DNA of 4,531 nucleotides from a virus (Duplodnaviria > Heunggongvirae > Uroviricota > Caudoviricetes), in IMG/VR virus record IMGVR_UViG_2713896899_000001, positions 1-4,531 of that record; one strand, written 5' to 3'. A program made the translations under genes and the position numbers. This document shows positions 1 through 4,430 of the stretch, in pieces. A model generated the notes under the pieces. The model saw only the letters and a program-made list of their open reading frames with translations, ran no database searches and had not been told where the DNA came from. How positions within the stretch are numbered: position 1 is the first letter of the stretch; each line of letters opens with the position of its first letter.

Positions 1-162
1 GATGGAAACGACTCATCGACGTACTTAATCAGCCAGGAGTTCCCAAAAATGGATAAAACACTTATGGCTATTCAGACTAAATTCACTATCGCCACTTTTA
101 TTGGCGATGAAAAGATGTTTCGTGAGGCCGTCGAAGCCTACAGGAAATGGAGGTCAAAATGA
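1..162 (+). CDS. Partial CDS: 3' end of a gene entering from upstream of the window, or alternatively a 37-aa micro-ORF starting at ATG 49; hypothetical phage protein
   Basis: Frame 1 is open from base 1 to TGA 160-162 (53 codons, ...DEKMFREAVEAYRKWRSK*). The stop overlaps the next gene's ATG (159-161) in an ATGA junction. Internal ATG at 49 is preceded by AGGAG (35-39). Absent from the ORF track because the long reading has no in-window start. I do not recognise the sequence. Confidence 0.4.
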   Translation, partial: DGNDSSTYLISQEFPKMDKTLMAIQTKFTIATFIGDEKMFREAVEAYRKWRSK

Positions 163-1643: not shown

Positions 1644-1940
1644 ATGCCAGCGCCTCTGTATGGTGCGGATGACCCGCGCAACTGCTCCGGTAGCTCCAAG
1701 GCGGAGGTGCTGGAAAATATCAAAAACAATTTCGACGCGTTTCTTGCTCTGACACCAGAAACAAAAGCAGAACGGATGTACCGACGCGATATACAACTCG
1801 CGCTAAAACAGGAGAAGGACCGAATAAACGAAACATCAATCCGACCATTCCGCAAATCCACATATACCCACTTCCCTGAATATATCGACCCGCGCCTGCG
1901 TAATTACCGCTCACGCTATGGCGCTATCAGTAATGACTGA
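1644..1940 (+). CDS. Hypothetical phage protein (98 aa)
   Basis: ORF track ORF, same strand as operon, SD AAGG 1632-1635 about 8 nt upstream of ATG. Stop TGA 1938-1940 lies inside the SD (GAGGAA) of the next gene. No recognisable domain by eye. Confidence 0.6.
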   Translation: MPAPLYGADDPRNCSGSSKAEVLENIKNNFDAFLALTPETKAERMYRRDIQLALKQEKDRINETSIRPFRKSTYTHFPEYIDPRLRNYRSRYGAISND

Positions 1941-1950
1941 GGAATTAACA

Positions 1951-2241
1951 ATGAAAACAATGAAGCTAAACATCGACCTCGGAAAATACGTTATTACCGG
2001 AACCAAACACGACCTGATTCTTAGCGAAAGAGGAATTATCAAAGAAGGCGAGAATGCAGGGAAAGAAACACTAAGTCGTATCGGTTATTACAGCAAGTTT
2101 GAGCATCTGGTCAAAGAGTTATGCAACCGTGAAATCCTGTTATCTCAGACGCAGACGCTACAGGATATTCAGCAGCATATCGAAACTTTAGGTATGTCAC
2201 TTAGCATGGCTATTGACCAGTTCATGGAGAGTAAATCATGA
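1951..2241 (+). CDS. Hypothetical phage protein (96 aa; 107 aa if started at ATG 1918)
   Basis: ORF track start is 1918. ATG 1951 is preferred because GAGGAA (1939-1944) sits 6 nt upstream, whereas 1918 has no SD and would overlap the preceding gene by 23 nt. Stop TGA 2239-2241 overlaps the next start. No family recognised. Confidence 0.6.
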
Positions 2242-2402
2242 GAGGACTTGCATACAATCCCGGCATTCTTCCGGCAGAAATGATTATTCGCCAACGCGTA
2301 AAGCCAATGCCATCGAGAGAGGAATTACTTAAGAGAAATTCTTTTCCATCAGTGAATCAAAACAAATATCTGAATGCGATGTTGCGGAGTGGGAAGAAAT
2401 GA
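2238..2402 (+). CDS. Small basic hypothetical protein (54 aa), not in the supplied ORF track
   Basis: Manual translation: [57 protein letters not shown] 2238-2240 overlaps the upstream stop (TGA 2239-2241) and its stop TGA 2400-2402 overlaps the downstream start ATG 2399-2401. SD GGAGAG 2226-2231. Fills an otherwise ~160-bp gap in a tightly packed operon. Confidence 0.5.
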
Positions 2403-2896
2403 GACAAATGACACTAATTGAGATGGATGGTTTTCTGAAAGGTAAATGCATCCCAAGTGATTTAAAGGTTAACGAAACAAACGCTGAATATCTTGTCCGT
2501 AAGTTCAGTGAACTTGAATCAAAACTCAACGAGCAGCGTGAGTATTACGAGGGCGTTATCTCGGATGGGAGTAAGCGTATTGCTGAACTGGAGAAAAGCG
2601 AAGAGCAACTCATCAACGAGCGTGACCATGCTGAGTATGCTTTAGCTGATATGTATTTTGCAGCAACCGGGAACAGGCCGGAATGGAGTAACTGTTTCAG
2701 TTTTTCAGATGCAGTAGATGCCGTAGTTGACAGAATTGCTGATTTAGAAGCTAAACAGCCATCGCCAGTAGTACCGGAAGAAAAACCAATGCCTAACCCT
2801 CTTAGCAGGTACGCGGTCGATGCTGTTGCCGCTATTGCAGAGGTGAGAGGCTGGAACGCCTGCCGCGCTGCAATGCTTCAGGGAAAAGGAGAGTGA
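2399..2896 (+). CDS. Probable Ead/Ea22-like family protein (165 aa) with central coiled-coil
   Basis: ATGA overlap with the preceding small ORF. Heptad-like, charged central segment ([17 protein letters not shown]...[15 protein letters not shown]). C-terminus ...[21 protein letters not shown] matches my recollection of the conserved C-terminal motif of lambdoid Ead/Ea22-like proteins. Unverified without HMM search. Confidence 0.5.
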
Positions 2897-2897
2897 T

Positions 2898-3452
2898 ATG
2901 ACCACTATAACCGATAAGAAACAGTATCCAGGCGAGCAATATCTTAATGAGCTGATCACCAACATAGAGTTTGCTGCAAGGGCACCAGTTGAAGTCGTGA
3001 GAGCGATGGCAGCAGAGCTACAGAAGCGGCGCGAAGCTGATAGTGCAGAACCTGTAAGCCAAACTTACAAGTTGCCAGTTAATACACCTTGCCAAGATGC
3101 GCCAGCCCATATCTGGCTGCAAACGGCTGGAGTATGGCCAGAAGATGGCGAGTTAAGCGAATTAACGTGGTGCAGCCACAATCAGCACCATGATGACACG
3201 CTATATGTTCGAGCTGACCTTGTGAATGGCAACTATCCGGTAACTCCGGATGGTTGGATAAGCTGTGGTGAGCGAATGCCGGAAGAAACGGGTGACATTA
3301 TTGTTGTTTCGGATGGCATTGTAATGTCAGGGATTTCTTATTCTCGTCGTGACGGGTTCTATATAGCCGCATTGGAGTACGACGACGATGAGCCAATTGG
3401 CGGTGTAACCCACTGGATGCCGCTACCGGAACCACCGCAGGAGGTGAAGTAA
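2898..3452 (+). CDS. Probable DUF551-domain phage protein (184 aa)
   Basis: SD AAAGGAGAG 2885-2893, ATG 2 nt after the upstream stop. C-terminal region GWISCGERMPEETGDIIVV...GGVTHWMPLPEPP fits the W...LPE...HWMPLP pattern I associate with DUF551 in enterobacterial prophages. Locally GC-rich (one 60-nt line counted at about 58% GC versus about 40-43% in the Sak4 and 1951-2241 regions). Confidence 0.5.
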   Translation: MTTITDKKQYPGEQYLNELITNIEFAARAPVEVVRAMAAELQKRREADSAEPVSQTYKLPVNTPCQDAPAHIWLQTAGVWPEDGELSELTWCSHNQHHDDTLYVRADLVNGNYPVTPDGWISCGERMPEETGDIIVVSDGIVMSGISYSRRDGFYIAALEYDDDEPIGGVTHWMPLPEPPQEVK

Positions 3453-3736
3453 TGGACTCCTTCGCGAAATATACGATTATTGACTGGATAGCCTTCCTTC
3501 AGGTTTTGCTCATCTGGTTTTATATGGCTTACAGGAGTGGACAGTGGATTGTCAGTGTAGCCTGTAGCAAGGGATGGCGTTGGTGGAACCGAAAGAATAA
3601 AAAAGCACTGGCATTGGATTCGTTTTACGAAGCATTCAATCTTAACAGCCTTCAGCCTGGTTCTGTCATTGTAGTCACCACTCAAAGCGGCATGACGATA
3701 CAAATTCACAAGCCAAAGGAGGAAGGTCGTGGCTAA
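3452..3736 (+). CDS. Small predicted single-pass membrane protein (94 aa), unknown function
   Basis: TAATG overlap with the upstream stop (TAA 3450-3452 / ATG 3452-3454), SD AGGAGG 3438-3443. About 19-residue hydrophobic stretch IIDWIAFLQVLLIWFYMAY followed by a basic cluster KGWRWWNRKNKK (positive-inside rule implies a cytoplasmic C-terminal domain). Confidence 0.55.
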   Translation: MDSFAKYTIIDWIAFLQVLLIWFYMAYRSGQWIVSVACSKGWRWWNRKNKKALALDSFYEAFNLNSLQPGSVIVVTTQSGMTIQIHKPKEEGRG

Positions 3737-4013
3737 CCTGCAACTTGCCGTCAAAGGTGAATACTTCGACGCCATGATTCGCGGAGAGAAAACGGAAGAG
3801 TATCGCCTGTGTAATGACTACTGGAATAAGCGAATCATGTTCCGGGAATATGACCGCCTGATTATCACAAAGGGATATCCGAAGCGCGACGATTCCAGCC
3901 GCAGAATTGATATTCCGTATGACGGATATGAAATCAAGACAATCACACATCCGCACTTCGGTGATAAACCGGTAAAGGTATACGCGATAAAGGTAAATAT
4001 CGGCAATGAATAA
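3729..4013 (+). CDS. Small ASCH/PUA-like fold protein (DUF3850-type), 94 aa, GTG start
   Basis: GTG 3729 preceded by a strong SD AAAGGAGGAAGG (3715-3726); overlaps the preceding gene by 8 nt. N-terminal LQLAVKGEYFDAMIRGEKTEEYR matches the ASCH-type beta1-loop-helix signature (compare E. coli YqfB [22 protein letters not shown]), followed by DRLIITKGY. Fold call is motif-based and tentative. Confidence 0.5.
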   Translation: MANLQLAVKGEYFDAMIRGEKTEEYRLCNDYWNKRIMFREYDRLIITKGYPKRDDSSRRIDIPYDGYEIKTITHPHFGDKPVKVYAIKVNIGNE

Positions 4014-4017
4014 CAAT

Positions 4018-4042
4018 CCTCGCACTCGCGGGGATTTCTTTT
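4018..4042 (+). terminator. Putative Rho-independent terminator (hairpin 1)
   Basis: Stem CCTCGC (4018-4023) / GCGGGG (4028-4033), 6 bp with one G-U pair, loop ACTC, followed by ATTTCTTTT (4034-4042). Lies 5 nt after the stop of the 3729-4013 gene. Confidence 0.45.
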
Positions 4043-4049
4043 ATCTGAA

Positions 4050-4072
4050 CTCGCTACGGCGGGTTTTGTTTT
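4050..4072 (+). terminator. Putative Rho-independent terminator (hairpin 2, tandem)
   Basis: Stem CTCGC (4050-4054) / GCGGG (4059-4063), 5 bp with one G-U pair, UACG tetraloop (UNCG-type), followed by TTTTGTTTT (4064-4072). Sequence-related to hairpin 1. Confidence 0.45.
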
Positions 4073-4085
4073 ATGGAGACAAGAA

Positions 4086-4430
4086 ATGTCAGATTTGGCT
4101 ATGAAGGTTTTGAAATGGCAATCGACTGGCGATGTTGGCATCAGTAGCGCAACTCTTGCCTCAATCGCATGTGGCCTGAAAAAGAATATCTATGGTCATA
4201 GCTTCGGTGCTCCACATGACGCAGCCGATTTCAGACGATGCGTTGCACTTGTTGAGCAGATTCCAGAAATCAGAGCTTCATTCGACAAAGTTGCAAAGCG
4301 CGTTCCGGCATTCAAAGGCATCCTCAACGAATGGGATTCCCTCGTTGCTCTGTTGAAGTCTGAAATGAAGATACACGGAAACAAAGCACCAGAGACTTAC
4401 AGAAGAATTAGCGAGTTACGCAAGGACTAA
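4086..4430 (+). CDS. Hypothetical protein (114 aa), isolated gene downstream of the terminators
   Basis: ORF track ORF, SD GGAGA 4075-4079 about 6 nt upstream of ATG 4086, stop TAA 4428-4430. Sequence [31 protein letters not shown]... has no motif I recognise and no obvious hydrophobic TM segment. Confidence 0.55.

What the first reader, a model, noticed from the sequence alone, without database searches (positions are those of the whole stretch)
2238..2402. Unannotated 54-aa ORF translationally coupled at both ends
The ORF track has nothing between 2241 and 2399. Manual translation gives a stop-free 54-codon ORF whose ATG overlaps the upstream stop (ATGA) and whose TGA overlaps the downstream ATG (ATGA), with GGAGAG 6 nt upstream. 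Double coupling in a gap-free operon is strong evidence for a real small protein, likely missed by a length cutoff. It is basic (R/K-rich).
Basis: seen in the sequence. Interest (0 to 1): 0.45.

Follow-up and report, generated by a model that had tools for sequence, protein, structure and literature searches.

The report
Known small phage gene (DUF2737)
The 54-codon reading frame is a real, conserved small phage protein, but it belongs to a long-annotated family of unknown function (DUF2737, P22 orf56) that almost always sits just after the phage's anti-RecBCD gene, so the find is ordinary.

Summary
There is a 54-codon ORF at 2238-2402 (+). ATGA overlaps join it to both neighbours, GGAGAG lies 6 nt upstream, and the protein is basic (pI 11.0).

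It is not an unannotated gene. It matches Pfam DUF2737 over its full length (E = 3e-32) and phrog_1117. Its named homologues are P22 orf56, HK620 hkaI, HK97 gp38, Sf6 gene 23 and ES18 gp44. RefSeq annotates it in 1266 of 5426 complete E. coli genomes. It was missing from the ORF track only because of a length cutoff.

It is clearly a protein:
- It is intact in 212 of 214 related loci.
- dN/dS is 0.22 overall and 0.08-0.10 in the conserved core (residues 23-48).
- Shifted sense frames give dN/dS above 1.

The double overlap is typical of this operon (6 of 11 junctions overlap), and only the downstream overlap is conserved.

New context: 161 of 164 abc2 (anti-RecBCD) loci carry DUF2737 just downstream, even at 38% abc2 identity and with shuffled alleles. 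Virulent Jersey-type phages carry it without abc2.

No function has been published, no fold match was found, and the structure model is weak. My best guess (about 0.35) is an early host-targeting peptide linked to the recombination/anti-RecBCD module.

The parts
2238..2402 (+). DUF2737-family small protein gene (54 aa). Homologues: P22 orf56, HK620 hkaI, HK97 gp38, Sf6 gene 23, ES18 gp44.
   Evidence: Pfam PF10930 E=3.4e-32, 110.5 bits against a cutoff of 25, full length. phrog_1117 E=1.3e-37. 100% identical proteins in phage CurroJimenez_Bas106 and 60 IMG/VR loci. dN/dS 0.22.
2304..2381 (+). Conserved core of the protein, residues 23-48 ([26 protein letters not shown]). It carries the family-wide motif P-x-R-[ED]-E-L-x-x-R-N-S-F...N-[KR]-[YH]-[LI] and is predicted as a short helix-loop-helix.
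   Evidence: R33, F36 and N42 are invariant and N34 and S35 are at least 90% conserved in 46 diverse members. dN/dS is 0.10 and 0.08 in the two clades, with synonymous sites saturated between clades. AF2 helices at 27-32 and 43-52, block pLDDT 71-85.
2226..2231 (+). Shine-Dalgarno-like GGAGAG, 6 nt upstream of the ATG, inside the 3' end of the DUF5405 gene.
   Evidence: Sequence. Related DUF5405 contexts keep GGAGAG. Its function is inferred, not tested.
2238..2241 (+). ATGA start/stop overlap with the upstream DUF5405 gene.
   Evidence: An ATGA upstream overlap is found in 48 of 163 unique contexts: most Jersey-clade contexts (37 of 48) and the DUF5405 contexts of the P22/lambdoid clade. 98 of 163 have a 10-nt gap after abc2 instead.
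2399..2402 (+). ATGA stop/start overlap with the downstream Ea22-like gene. The preceding codons (2385-2398, GGAGTGGGAAGAAA) form that gene's purine-rich ribosome-binding region.
   Evidence: The downstream start overlaps the stop in 152 of 163 unique contexts, with ATGA in 121.
1644..1940 (+). abc2 (anti-RecBCD protein 2), the conserved upstream partner of DUF2737 in temperate phages.
   Evidence: Pfam PF11043 E=4.8e-38. 161 of 164 abc2-sampled unique contexts have DUF2737 within 1 kb downstream.
1951..2241 (+). DUF5405 gene (Sf6 gene 24 / ES18 gp45 type), an optional cassette inserted between abc2 and DUF2737.
   Evidence: Pfam PF17399 E=1.4e-5, phrog_154. Present in a minority of contexts. 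The same post-abc2 linker TGAGGAATTnACnATG precedes either gene.
2399..2896 (+). Ead/Ea22-like downstream gene with a conserved N-terminal region of about 40 aa and a variable remainder. It is the commonest downstream neighbour.
   Evidence: phrog_614 / Ead_Ea22. An N-terminus M[KR]QM[ST][14 protein letters not shown] occurs in about 85 related contexts, with protein lengths of 135-232 aa.

Best explanation
Shown: 2238-2402 encodes a genuine 54-aa basic protein of the DUF2737 family. Its homologues are P22 orf56, HK620 HkaI, HK97 gp38, Sf6 gp23 and ES18 gp44. The gene lies in the early-left (P_L) operon of an HK620/P22-like lambdoid prophage of E. coli. The gene order is kil, a small ORF, Sak4-like ATPase, SSB-like protein, abc2, DUF5405, DUF2737, then the Ea22-like and other 'ea' genes. 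There is no sense-strand promoter or terminator signal nearby, so it should be transcribed early as part of the antiterminated P_L transcript. It is packed against its neighbours by 4-nt overlaps.

Inferred mechanism:
1. The upstream overlap lets ribosomes finishing DUF5405 reinitiate at the ATG, helped by GGAGAG.
2. Its own last codons supply the ribosome-binding site of the next gene, so its translation probably helps keep that site open.
3. The protein is too small and too weakly structured to be an enzyme. It most likely acts by binding a conserved enterobacterial macromolecule through its C-terminal 26-residue helix-loop-helix motif ([14 protein letters not shown]...NKYL). The variable N-terminal half tunes this or is dispensable.
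4. In temperate phages the gene is an almost obligatory distal neighbour of abc2. My committed guess is therefore that it is an accessory member of the recombination/anti-RecBCD module. It would modulate host DNA-end processing (RecBCD or another host nuclease or repair factor) or its consequences during early infection. It is not a required Abc2 cofactor.

Confidence is about 0.97 that it is a real DUF2737 protein gene. It is about 0.35 for the Rec-module-linked mechanism, and that is the number given below.
For: Identity:
- Pfam PF10930 E=3.4e-32 over the full length.
- phrog_1117 E=1.3e-37.
- RefSeq 'DUF2737 family protein' in the same gene order.
- P22 orf56 at 77% identity; HK620 hkaI; ES18 gp44 'similar to P22 orf 56'.

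Protein-level selection:
- 212 of 214 loci are intact.
- NG86 dN/dS is 0.22 in two independent clades (80 and 47 unique CDS).
- The core gives 0.08-0.10, and shifted sense frames give 1.4-1.6.

Not an RNA element:
- No Rfam hit.
- Fold z = +0.76.

Mid-operon position: no sense-strand promoter or terminator signal near it.

Rec-module link:
- abc2 is immediately upstream in 101 of 110 P22/lambdoid-clade contexts.
- Sampling by abc2, 161 of 164 unique contexts have DUF2737 downstream, and 145 are directly adjacent.
- The link holds at 57%, 39% and 38% abc2 identity in ES18, Flyfo Tbat2_3 and mEp010.
- It is retained in mEp235, where every other 'ea' gene is absent.
- It is retained when DUF5405 is inserted between the two genes.
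- Allele types are shuffled (r=0.13), so the pairing is not just unbroken linkage.
- Phage records: 232 with abc2 against 223 with full-length DUF2737.

Small binder rather than enzyme: 54 aa, AF2 pLDDT 65-73, pTM 0.24-0.27, three short helices.
Against: - No experiment on this family was found in the searchable literature.
- Abc2 forms its complex with RecBCD without any orf56 product. The eLife 2022 study co-expressed only RecB, RecC, RecD and Abc2. It lists only Abc1 and Arf as uncharacterised partners (PMC9836394).
- Family members in virulent Guernseyvirinae/Kagunavirus phages lie among tiny early genes between the lysis and terminase genes, with no abc2 in the fetched flanks. abc2's 232 records hold only 84 Salmonella phages, against 420 for DUF2737, so most Jersey-type phages appear to lack abc2. 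I did not check this record by record.
- Cronobacter phage ENT47670 has the gene after RecT/exonuclease without abc2.
- Shuffled alleles argue against a co-adapted physical Abc2-DUF2737 interface.
- Known RecBCD-blocking DNA mimics are acidic (my own knowledge; gp5.9 pI 4.0 in PMC9836394), whereas this protein is strongly basic.
- The gene is dispensable in some genomes: the CUS-3 pseudogene, L203, and three abc2 contexts lacking it.
- Adjacent genes only 10 nt apart could stay together partly for mechanical reasons.
Confidence: 0.35

Rival explanations
1. It is a generic early host-takeover or anti-defence peptide with no functional tie to Abc2 or recombination. It would bind some other conserved enterobacterial target, for example a defence-system component or a transcription, translation or division factor. 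On this reading its position after abc2 is inherited lambdoid gene order, not a functional link.
For: The same conserved core occurs in virulent Jersey-type and Kagunavirus phages with no abc2 nearby, in clusters of tiny early genes of unknown function. P_L operons are rich in small host-directed peptides such as Kil, found here at 49-162, CIII and Ral. abc2 and DUF2737 alleles are uncorrelated. The gene is dispensable in some phages.
Against: 98% co-occurrence with abc2 despite extensive mosaicism and allele shuffling. Retention next to abc2 when all other 'ea' genes are lost, as in mEp235. No match to any PADLOC model, although that library covers defence systems and not counter-defence proteins.
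Confidence: 0.35
2. It counters a host 'guard' that senses tampering with RecBCD, such as a retron- or abortive-infection-type sensor. It would accompany abc2 to neutralise the alarm that Abc2 triggers.
For: Tight pairing with abc2 without allele co-adaptation fits a protein that acts on a host sensor and not on Abc2 itself. That guards of RecBCD exist is my own background knowledge, not a tool result.
Against: Virulent phages lacking abc2 also keep the gene. There is no direct evidence of any kind.
Confidence: 0.1
3. Its main role is structural for the operon. It would be a conserved 'joint' sequence that promotes homologous exchange of flanking accessory modules and delivers ribosomes to the downstream gene. 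The peptide itself would be unimportant.
For: The conserved nucleotide island spans the abc2 3' end, DUF2737 and the first 100-130 nt of the downstream gene, and it is flanked by variable sequence. The downstream overlap is conserved in 152 of 163 contexts, and the C-terminal codons form the next gene's ribosome-binding site. The distant locus L216 pairs a 29%-identical DUF2737 with a near-identical Ea22-like N-terminus, which points to a recombination joint.
Against: Selection is on the amino-acid sequence. dN/dS is 0.08-0.10 in the core, with pS 0.29-0.38 within clades and saturated between clades. A DNA-level joint would conserve synonymous sites as well. The reading frame is intact in 212 of 214 loci.
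Confidence: 0.04
4. It is not a gene: a chance open frame between two real genes.
For: ORFs of this length are common by chance in the window, with about 16 spurious ORFs of 54 aa or more.
Against: Full-length Pfam and PHROG matches, conservation across temperate and virulent phage lineages, a dN/dS of 0.22 found only in this sense frame (the one low antisense value, 0.35-0.41, fits the frame that shares its third-codon positions), and intactness in 99% of relatives.
Confidence: 0.01

Closest known systems
Pfam DUF2737 (PF10930) / phrog_1117: P22 orf56 (NP_059593), HK620 HkaI (NP_112042), HK97 gp38, Sf6 gene 23, ES18 gp44, ST64T gp14, RefSeq WP_001214456
   Same: Same family, same length (54-56 aa), same conserved core. 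Same place in the early-left operon, directly or nearly directly after abc2. 77-100% identity.
   Different: Nothing material. In this window a DUF5405 cassette lies between abc2 and the gene, as in Sf6 and ES18, so the upstream junction is an ATGA overlap instead of the usual 10-nt spacer.
Guernseyvirinae/Kagunavirus DUF2737 proteins (phrog_4684; for example Salmonella phage Jersey gp67)
   Same: Same C-terminal core (FPTREELxKRNSFPGPDKNKYLNRMW), similar length (51-53 aa) and the same dN/dS of 0.22. Usually 4-nt overlaps at both ends.
   Different: The N-terminal half is unrelated (about 40-44% overall identity). The phages are virulent siphoviruses. The gene lies between the lysis cassette and the terminase among tiny genes of unknown function, with no abc2.
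Accessory proteins of the P22 recombination / anti-RecBCD system (Abc1, Arf) and Abc2 itself
   Same: Small proteins encoded in the same module of the same operon. Abc1 and Arf likewise have no known molecular function (PMC9836394; PMC12315714). DUF2737 co-occurs with abc2 in 98% of abc2 contexts.
   Different: No sequence similarity. Abc1 and Arf have genetic phenotypes in recombination, while orf56 has none reported. Abc1 and Arf are present in only some abc2 phages, whereas DUF2737 is in nearly all.
Small host-directed peptides of lambdoid P_L operons (Kil, CIII, Ral, Gam)
   Same: Same operon and the same size class (37-100 aa). Early expression and non-essential. They act by binding a host protein (established knowledge of lambda biology). 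Kil is present in this window at 49-162.
   Different: No homology (only DUF2737 is hit in Pfam). The target and phenotype of DUF2737 are unknown.

Membership tests
Pfam DUF2737 (PF10930) / phrog_1117 | Scores above the family's curated HMM threshold over the full model length. | tested here: met
   110.5 bits against a gathering score of 25, E=3.4e-32, residues 1-53 on model positions 1-53 of 53. phrog_1117 E=1.3e-37, 1-54 of 54.
Pfam DUF2737 (PF10930) / phrog_1117 | Stand-alone protein of about 50-57 aa with the conserved core P-x-R-[ED]-E-L-x-x-R-N-S-F...N-[KR]-[YH]-[LI]. | tested here: met
   The window protein has [12 protein letters not shown]...NKYL. R33, F36 and N42 are invariant and N34 and S35 are at least 90% conserved across 46 diverse members.
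Pfam DUF2737 (PF10930) / phrog_1117 | Restricted to Enterobacteriaceae phages and prophages. | tested here: met
   Hits are in Escherichia, Salmonella, Shigella, Shimwellia, Superficieibacter, Cronobacter and Serratia phages. The one Bacteroidota scaffold matches only the C-terminal half (residues 23-54), as Jersey-type phages do, so I suspect a phage contaminant; this was not checked. There are only 90 representatives at 50% clustering.
P22-type recombination / anti-RecBCD module (Erf or Sak4, SSB, Abc1, Abc2) | Encoded contiguously with abc2 in the early-left operon. | tested here: met
   161 of 164 abc2 contexts have it within 1 kb downstream, and 145 are adjacent. In the window it is 297 nt after abc2, with DUF5405 between them.
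P22-type recombination / anti-RecBCD module (Erf or Sak4, SSB, Abc1, Abc2) | Contributes to recombination or to the control of RecBCD. | not testable with these tools
   No genetic or biochemical data were found. The Abc2-RecBCD complex forms without it (PMC9836394).
Translationally coupled gene pair | Stop codon of one gene overlaps or abuts the start codon of the next on the same strand. | tested here: met
   ATGA at 2238-2241 and at 2399-2402. The downstream overlap is conserved in 152 of 163 contexts, and the upstream overlap in 48 of 163.
Translationally coupled gene pair | Translation of the downstream gene depends on translation of the upstream one. | not testable with these tools
   This needs reporter fusions with upstream nonsense mutations. 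No RNA structure sequestering either start was predicted (z=+0.76).
Ribosomal protein bL33 | Significant sequence or profile similarity to bL33. | tested here: not met
   The only PDB profile hit was chloroplast bL33c at E=0.056, domain i-Evalue 0.81. Rejected.
Structured RNA element or small RNA in place of a protein | Rfam match, or folding energy beyond shuffled controls. | tested here: not met
   No Rfam match at E<=1 in the whole window. MFE z-score +0.76 for 2215-2420.

The most novel reading that the evidence does not exclude
DUF2737 is an unrecognised, near-universal partner of the Abc2 anti-RecBCD gene. It would be a 54-aa basic peptide that targets a host DNA-end-processing factor or a guard of one, and virulent Jersey-type and Kagunavirus phages would use it on their own. 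That would add a new class of small phage modulator of host recombination or immunity to the P22-type Rec module.
Probability: 0.3. Interest if true: 0.55.

Novelty: already known. Interest (0 to 1): 0.22.

Why it matters
As a gene call it does not matter. The ORF is already in Pfam, PHROGs and RefSeq and has been annotated in P22-like phage genomes for years. Finding it only shows that a 60-aa cutoff hides real phage genes.

What could matter is the context found here. The gene is present in about a quarter of complete E. coli genomes. It is under strong purifying selection. In temperate phages it is tied to the anti-RecBCD gene abc2 in 98% of contexts despite heavy mosaicism. Yet none of the recombination-module papers I could read mentions it. 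That makes it a cheap, well-defined candidate for a deletion and pull-down experiment in P22 or HK620. If it has a phenotype, it would fill a gap in a classic phage recombination and counter-defence module.

Tried and rejected
1. Structure-based function assignment. AF2 with a 25-sequence alignment gave pLDDT 64.8 and pTM 0.24. With 46 sequences it gave pLDDT 73.3 and pTM 0.27. Foldseek against the PDB gave no hits. Against BFVD it gave only four hits, all at E>=0.19, none named and none significant. Nothing usable.
2. PDB sequence-profile search. The only hit was bL33c at E=0.056. I followed it with hhalign against E. coli L33 (probability 0.2%) and rejected it.
3. NCBIfam: no model matched. 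PADLOC: no match for this protein.
4. Rfam and RNA folding, to test a non-coding explanation: negative.
5. Literature. Searches for DUF2737, orf56 with P22, accession numbers and Abc2 with PpiB, plus reading the phage L, epsilon34, lambdoid Rec-module and RecBCD-inhibitor papers. No functional statement about this gene was found. The original P22 abc-region papers from the 1980s are not in the library.
6. A co-evolving pair with the downstream Ea22-like gene. Rejected, because the distant locus L216 pairs a 29%-identical DUF2737 with a near-identical Ea22-like N-terminus, which indicates a recombination joint.
7. An obligate Abc2 cofactor. Disfavoured by allele shuffling, by abc2-less carriers and by Abc2-RecBCD complex formation without it.
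8. Fusion proteins in the databases (P0184-P0187, P0190, P0208) as 'Rosetta stone' clues. They look like read-through or mis-called starts into neighbouring genes and were not informative.
Full report
**1. The observation**

The window has an ATG-initiated, stop-free ORF of 54 codons at 2238..2402 on the + strand.
- Its ATG (2238-2240) overlaps the TGA (2239-2241) of the upstream ORF 1951..2241.
- Its TGA (2400-2402) overlaps the ATG (2399-2401) of the downstream ORF 2399..2896.
- GGAGAG lies at 2226-2231, 6 nt before the ATG.
- The product, [54 protein letters not shown], has pI 11.0 and a net charge of about +7.5.

Two points weaken the reasoning.
- An ORF of this length is not remarkable in itself. 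About 16 evidently spurious ORFs of 54 aa or more lie in other frames of this 4.5-kb window.
- Overlapping junctions are the norm here. Six of the eleven consecutive gene junctions overlap, by 16, 4, 4, 4, 1 and 8 nt.

**2. What it is**

The protein matches Pfam DUF2737 (PF10930) end to end: E = 3.4e-32, 110.5 bits against a gathering score of 25. It also matches phrog_1117 at E = 1.3e-37.

RefSeq annotates the same gene as 'DUF2737 family protein' (WP_001214456.1) in E. coli MS 21-1. The gene order there is Ral, CIII, Kil, a small ORF, ATPase, DUF669, anti-RecBCD, DUF5405, DUF2737, Ead/Ea22-like, and further on xis and int.

Named homologues:
- P22 orf56, 77% identity. An 'unknown protein' is already annotated at this position in the short P22 abc-region record J02471.
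- HK620 hkaI, annotated as 'similar to HK97 gp38'.
- Sf6 gene 23.
- ES18 gp44, annotated as 'similar to phage P22 orf 56'.
- ST64T gp14.

The 165-bp gene occurs at 80% nucleotide identity or more in 1266 of 5426 complete E. coli genomes, with up to 4 copies per genome. PGAP annotates it there. An identical protein is encoded by phage CurroJimenez_Bas106 and by 60 of the IMG/VR loci I fetched.

'Unannotated' therefore reflects only the ORF track's length cutoff. The ORF tool's default minimum is 60 aa.

The window is the early-left (P_L) operon of an HK620/P22-like lambdoid prophage:

| Coordinates | Gene |
|---|---|
| 49-162 | Kil (PF06301) |
| 147-347 | small ORF, no family match |
| 356-1036 | Sak4-like ATPase |
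| 1033-1620 | SSB-like protein |
| 1644-1940 | abc2 |
| 1951-2241 | DUF5405 |
| 2238-2402 | DUF2737 |
| 2399-2896 | Ea22-like |
| 2898-3452 | DUF551 |
| 3452-3736 | DUF4752 |
| 3729-4013 | phrog_625 |
| 4086-4430 | phrog_1229 |

**3. Is it really a protein?**

I gathered 214 related loci from IMG/VR, one-genome-per-species GTDB contigs and phage records.
- The frame is intact, at 51-56 aa, in all but two loci. CUS-3 has an internal deletion of about 77 nt that gives MRGLA followed by a stop. L203 has a nonsense codon at position 3.
- On 127 unique coding sequences, Nei-Gojobori dN/dS is 0.22 in the P22/lambdoid clade (80 sequences). It is also 0.22 in the Jersey/Kagunavirus clade (47 sequences).
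- For residues 23-48 it is 0.10 and 0.08 in the two clades.
- The two shifted sense frames give 1.4-1.6 and contain stops.
- Between the two clades synonymous sites are saturated, while the core keeps about 70% amino-acid identity.
- There is no Rfam match anywhere in the window.
- The region does not fold better than shuffled sequence (z = +0.76).

**4. Junction architecture across relatives**

In 163 unique contexts the downstream gene's start overlaps the DUF2737 stop in 152, with ATGA in 121.

The upstream ATGA overlap is seen in only 48. These are most Jersey-clade contexts (37 of 48) plus the minority of P22/lambdoid contexts that carry DUF5405. In 98 contexts the gene follows abc2 after a 10-nt spacer with its own GAGGA Shine-Dalgarno.

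The linker after abc2 (TGAGGAATTnACnATG) is the same whether DUF5405 or DUF2737 follows. DUF5405 therefore looks like a cassette inserted exactly at that junction.

The last codons of DUF2737 (CGG AGT GGG AAG AAA TGA) form the purine-rich ribosome-binding region of the next gene. This accounts for part of the basic C-terminal tail. Without the last six residues the family's median net charge is still +4.5.

Whether translation is actually coupled was not tested and cannot be with these tools.

**5. Family size, structure and literature**

An exhaustive profile search of 1.84 billion representative proteins found only 90 family representatives at E <= 0.001. Genome hits are confined to Enterobacteriaceae and their phages.

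The invariant core is P-x-R-[ED]-E-L-x-x-R-N-S-F-[PG]-x-x-[ND]-x-N-[KR]-[YH]-[LI]. The N-terminal half is clade-specific.

AlphaFold2 models are weak: pLDDT 64.8 and 73.3, pTM 0.24 and 0.27. They show only short helices at about 12-15, 27-32 and 43-52. Foldseek found nothing significant in the PDB or BFVD. A marginal profile hit to ribosomal protein bL33 (E = 0.056) was rejected by hhalign (probability 0.2%). NCBIfam has no model matching it, and it matches no PADLOC model.

No paper in the searchable library gives the gene a function. The 2022 structural study of Abc2-RecBCD and the 2025 survey of lambdoid Rec modules do not mention it.

**6. Context: the one non-trivial result**

In the P22/lambdoid clade, abc2 lies immediately upstream in 94 of 110 unique contexts, and in 7 more with DUF5405 between them. 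The recombinase further upstream varies (Erf, Sak4 with SSB, Abc1). So does the gene downstream (eaE, Ea22-like, DUF551, DUF4752, phrog_625).

To remove ascertainment bias I sampled IMG/VR by abc2, using three divergent queries. Of 164 unique abc2 contexts, 161 (98%) have a DUF2737 hit within 1 kb downstream. 145 are directly adjacent and 15 sit about 300 nt away, behind DUF5405. Three contexts have lost the gene cleanly, one copy is fused to the next gene, and one is cut by a contig end.

The pairing persists at low abc2 identity:
- ES18, 57%.
- Flyfo siphovirus Tbat2_3, 39%. The DUF2737 homologue there lies in an unannotated gap (E = 3e-14).
- mEp010, 38% (E = 5e-7).

In mEp235 the whole 'ea' region is absent, but the order abc2, DUF2737, xis, int remains.

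abc2 and DUF2737 allele types are shuffled. Pairwise identities correlate at r = 0.13, and 92 of 1500 sampled pairs have abc2 below 75% identity with DUF2737 above 95%. The pairing therefore survives recombination without allele-specific co-adaptation. Phage-record counts agree: 232 with abc2 against 223 with full-length DUF2737.

Against a strict functional tie:
- Several hundred virulent Jersey-type and Kagunavirus phage records carry the gene. In the loci I examined it lies among tiny unknown genes between the lysis cassette and the terminase, with no abc2.
- Cronobacter phage ENT47670 has it after RecT/exonuclease without abc2.
- Abc2 binds RecBCD when co-expressed with only RecB, RecC and RecD (PMC9836394).

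**7. Most likely mechanism**

Shown: a conserved, selected small basic protein, encoded mid-operon with no sense-strand promoter or terminator signal nearby.

Inferred:
- It is made early from the antiterminated P_L transcript.
- Ribosomes reach it by reinitiation from DUF5405 in this window, or through its own Shine-Dalgarno in most relatives, and its translation feeds the next gene.
- It acts by binding a conserved enterobacterial macromolecule through the C-terminal helix-loop-helix core.

I commit, at about 0.35, to an accessory role in the recombination/anti-RecBCD module. It would modulate host DNA-end processing or its consequences.

Rivals:
- A generic host-takeover or counter-defence peptide whose position is merely inherited (0.35).
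- A counter to a guard of RecBCD (0.10).
- A recombination 'joint' and ribosome-delivery element whose peptide is unimportant (0.04). The dN/dS values contradict this.
- Not a gene (0.01).

**8. Verdict**

It is wrong that the gene is unannotated and that the double coupling is the telling evidence.

The feature is an already known member of an uncharacterised family, so interest is low. The near-universal abc2-DUF2737 pairing, and the sharing of the family with virulent Guernseyvirinae, make it a reasonable candidate for a simple knockout and pull-down study.

Noticed in passing
window 1941-1953 and 1951-2241: DUF5405 (Sf6 gene 24 / ES18 gp45 type) looks like a cassette inserted exactly between abc2 and DUF2737. 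The linker after abc2 (TGAGGAATTnACnATG) is the same whether DUF5405 or DUF2737 follows. The PHROG label for this family, 'replication initiation protein', has no support that I could see.
   Followed up: partly
L084 2968/2998-3153 (Cronobacter phage ENT47670); L222 ~2047-2250 (Flyfo siphovirus Tbat2_3): Intact DUF2737 homologues lie in unannotated gaps of these public phage records (HMM E=2.5e-23 and 3.3e-14). The gene really is missed by some annotation pipelines.
   Followed up: yes
L086 2997-3083 (phage CUS-3, between hkaJ and hkaH): The DUF2737 copy is a pseudogene here. An internal deletion of about 77 nt gives MRGLA followed by a stop, and the C-terminal codons survive out of frame. The gene is therefore dispensable for at least this prophage.
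   Followed up: yes
window 4015-4036 and 4047-4066 (+): Two tandem terminator-like hairpins with T-runs lie in the only sizeable intergenic gap of the operon (4014-4085), just before the phrog_1229 gene. This may be a P_L-operon terminator that is read through under N antitermination.
   Followed up: no
L448 4045-4057 (HK620 record), equivalent to window ~2331-2343: The HK620 annotation places a predicted terminator, 'tL3', inside hkaI (the DUF2737 gene). The equivalent window sequence forms only a weak AT-rich hairpin, and my terminator scan did not call it.
   Followed up: partly
window 2399-2896 and downstream genes of ~85 related loci: The downstream Ea22-like proteins share a conserved N-terminus of about 40 aa (M[KR]QM[ST][14 protein letters not shown][SR][16 protein letters not shown]). 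It is followed by coiled-coil-like and C-terminal parts of very variable length (135-232 aa), a strongly mosaic gene family. The same N-terminus follows a DUF2737 protein only 29% identical to the window's in L216.
   Followed up: partly
proteins P0130, P0185, P0190, P0208; locus L337; the 'duf_t7' allele: Odd family variants exist. Some have an internal tandem duplication of the core or of the whole protein (106 aa). Others are read-through fusions to the downstream eaE-like or Ea22-like gene.
   Followed up: no
window 49-162 and 147-347: 49-162 encodes Kil (PF06301, E=8e-22). The next small ORF (66 aa, or 62 aa from the ATG at 159 that RefSeq uses) has no family match. It occupies the position of HK620 hkaM, which sits between kil and the Sak4 gene in the same way and is labelled 'recombinase' in RefSeq.
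   Followed up: partly
L214 (Taishania pollutisoli scaffold22, 18,987 bp): A Bacteroidota genome assembly carries a DUF2737 match covering only the C-terminal half (residues 23-54, 69% identity), the pattern seen in Jersey-type phages. A contaminating enterobacterial phage contig seems more likely to me than a genuine Bacteroidota prophage.
   Followed up: no
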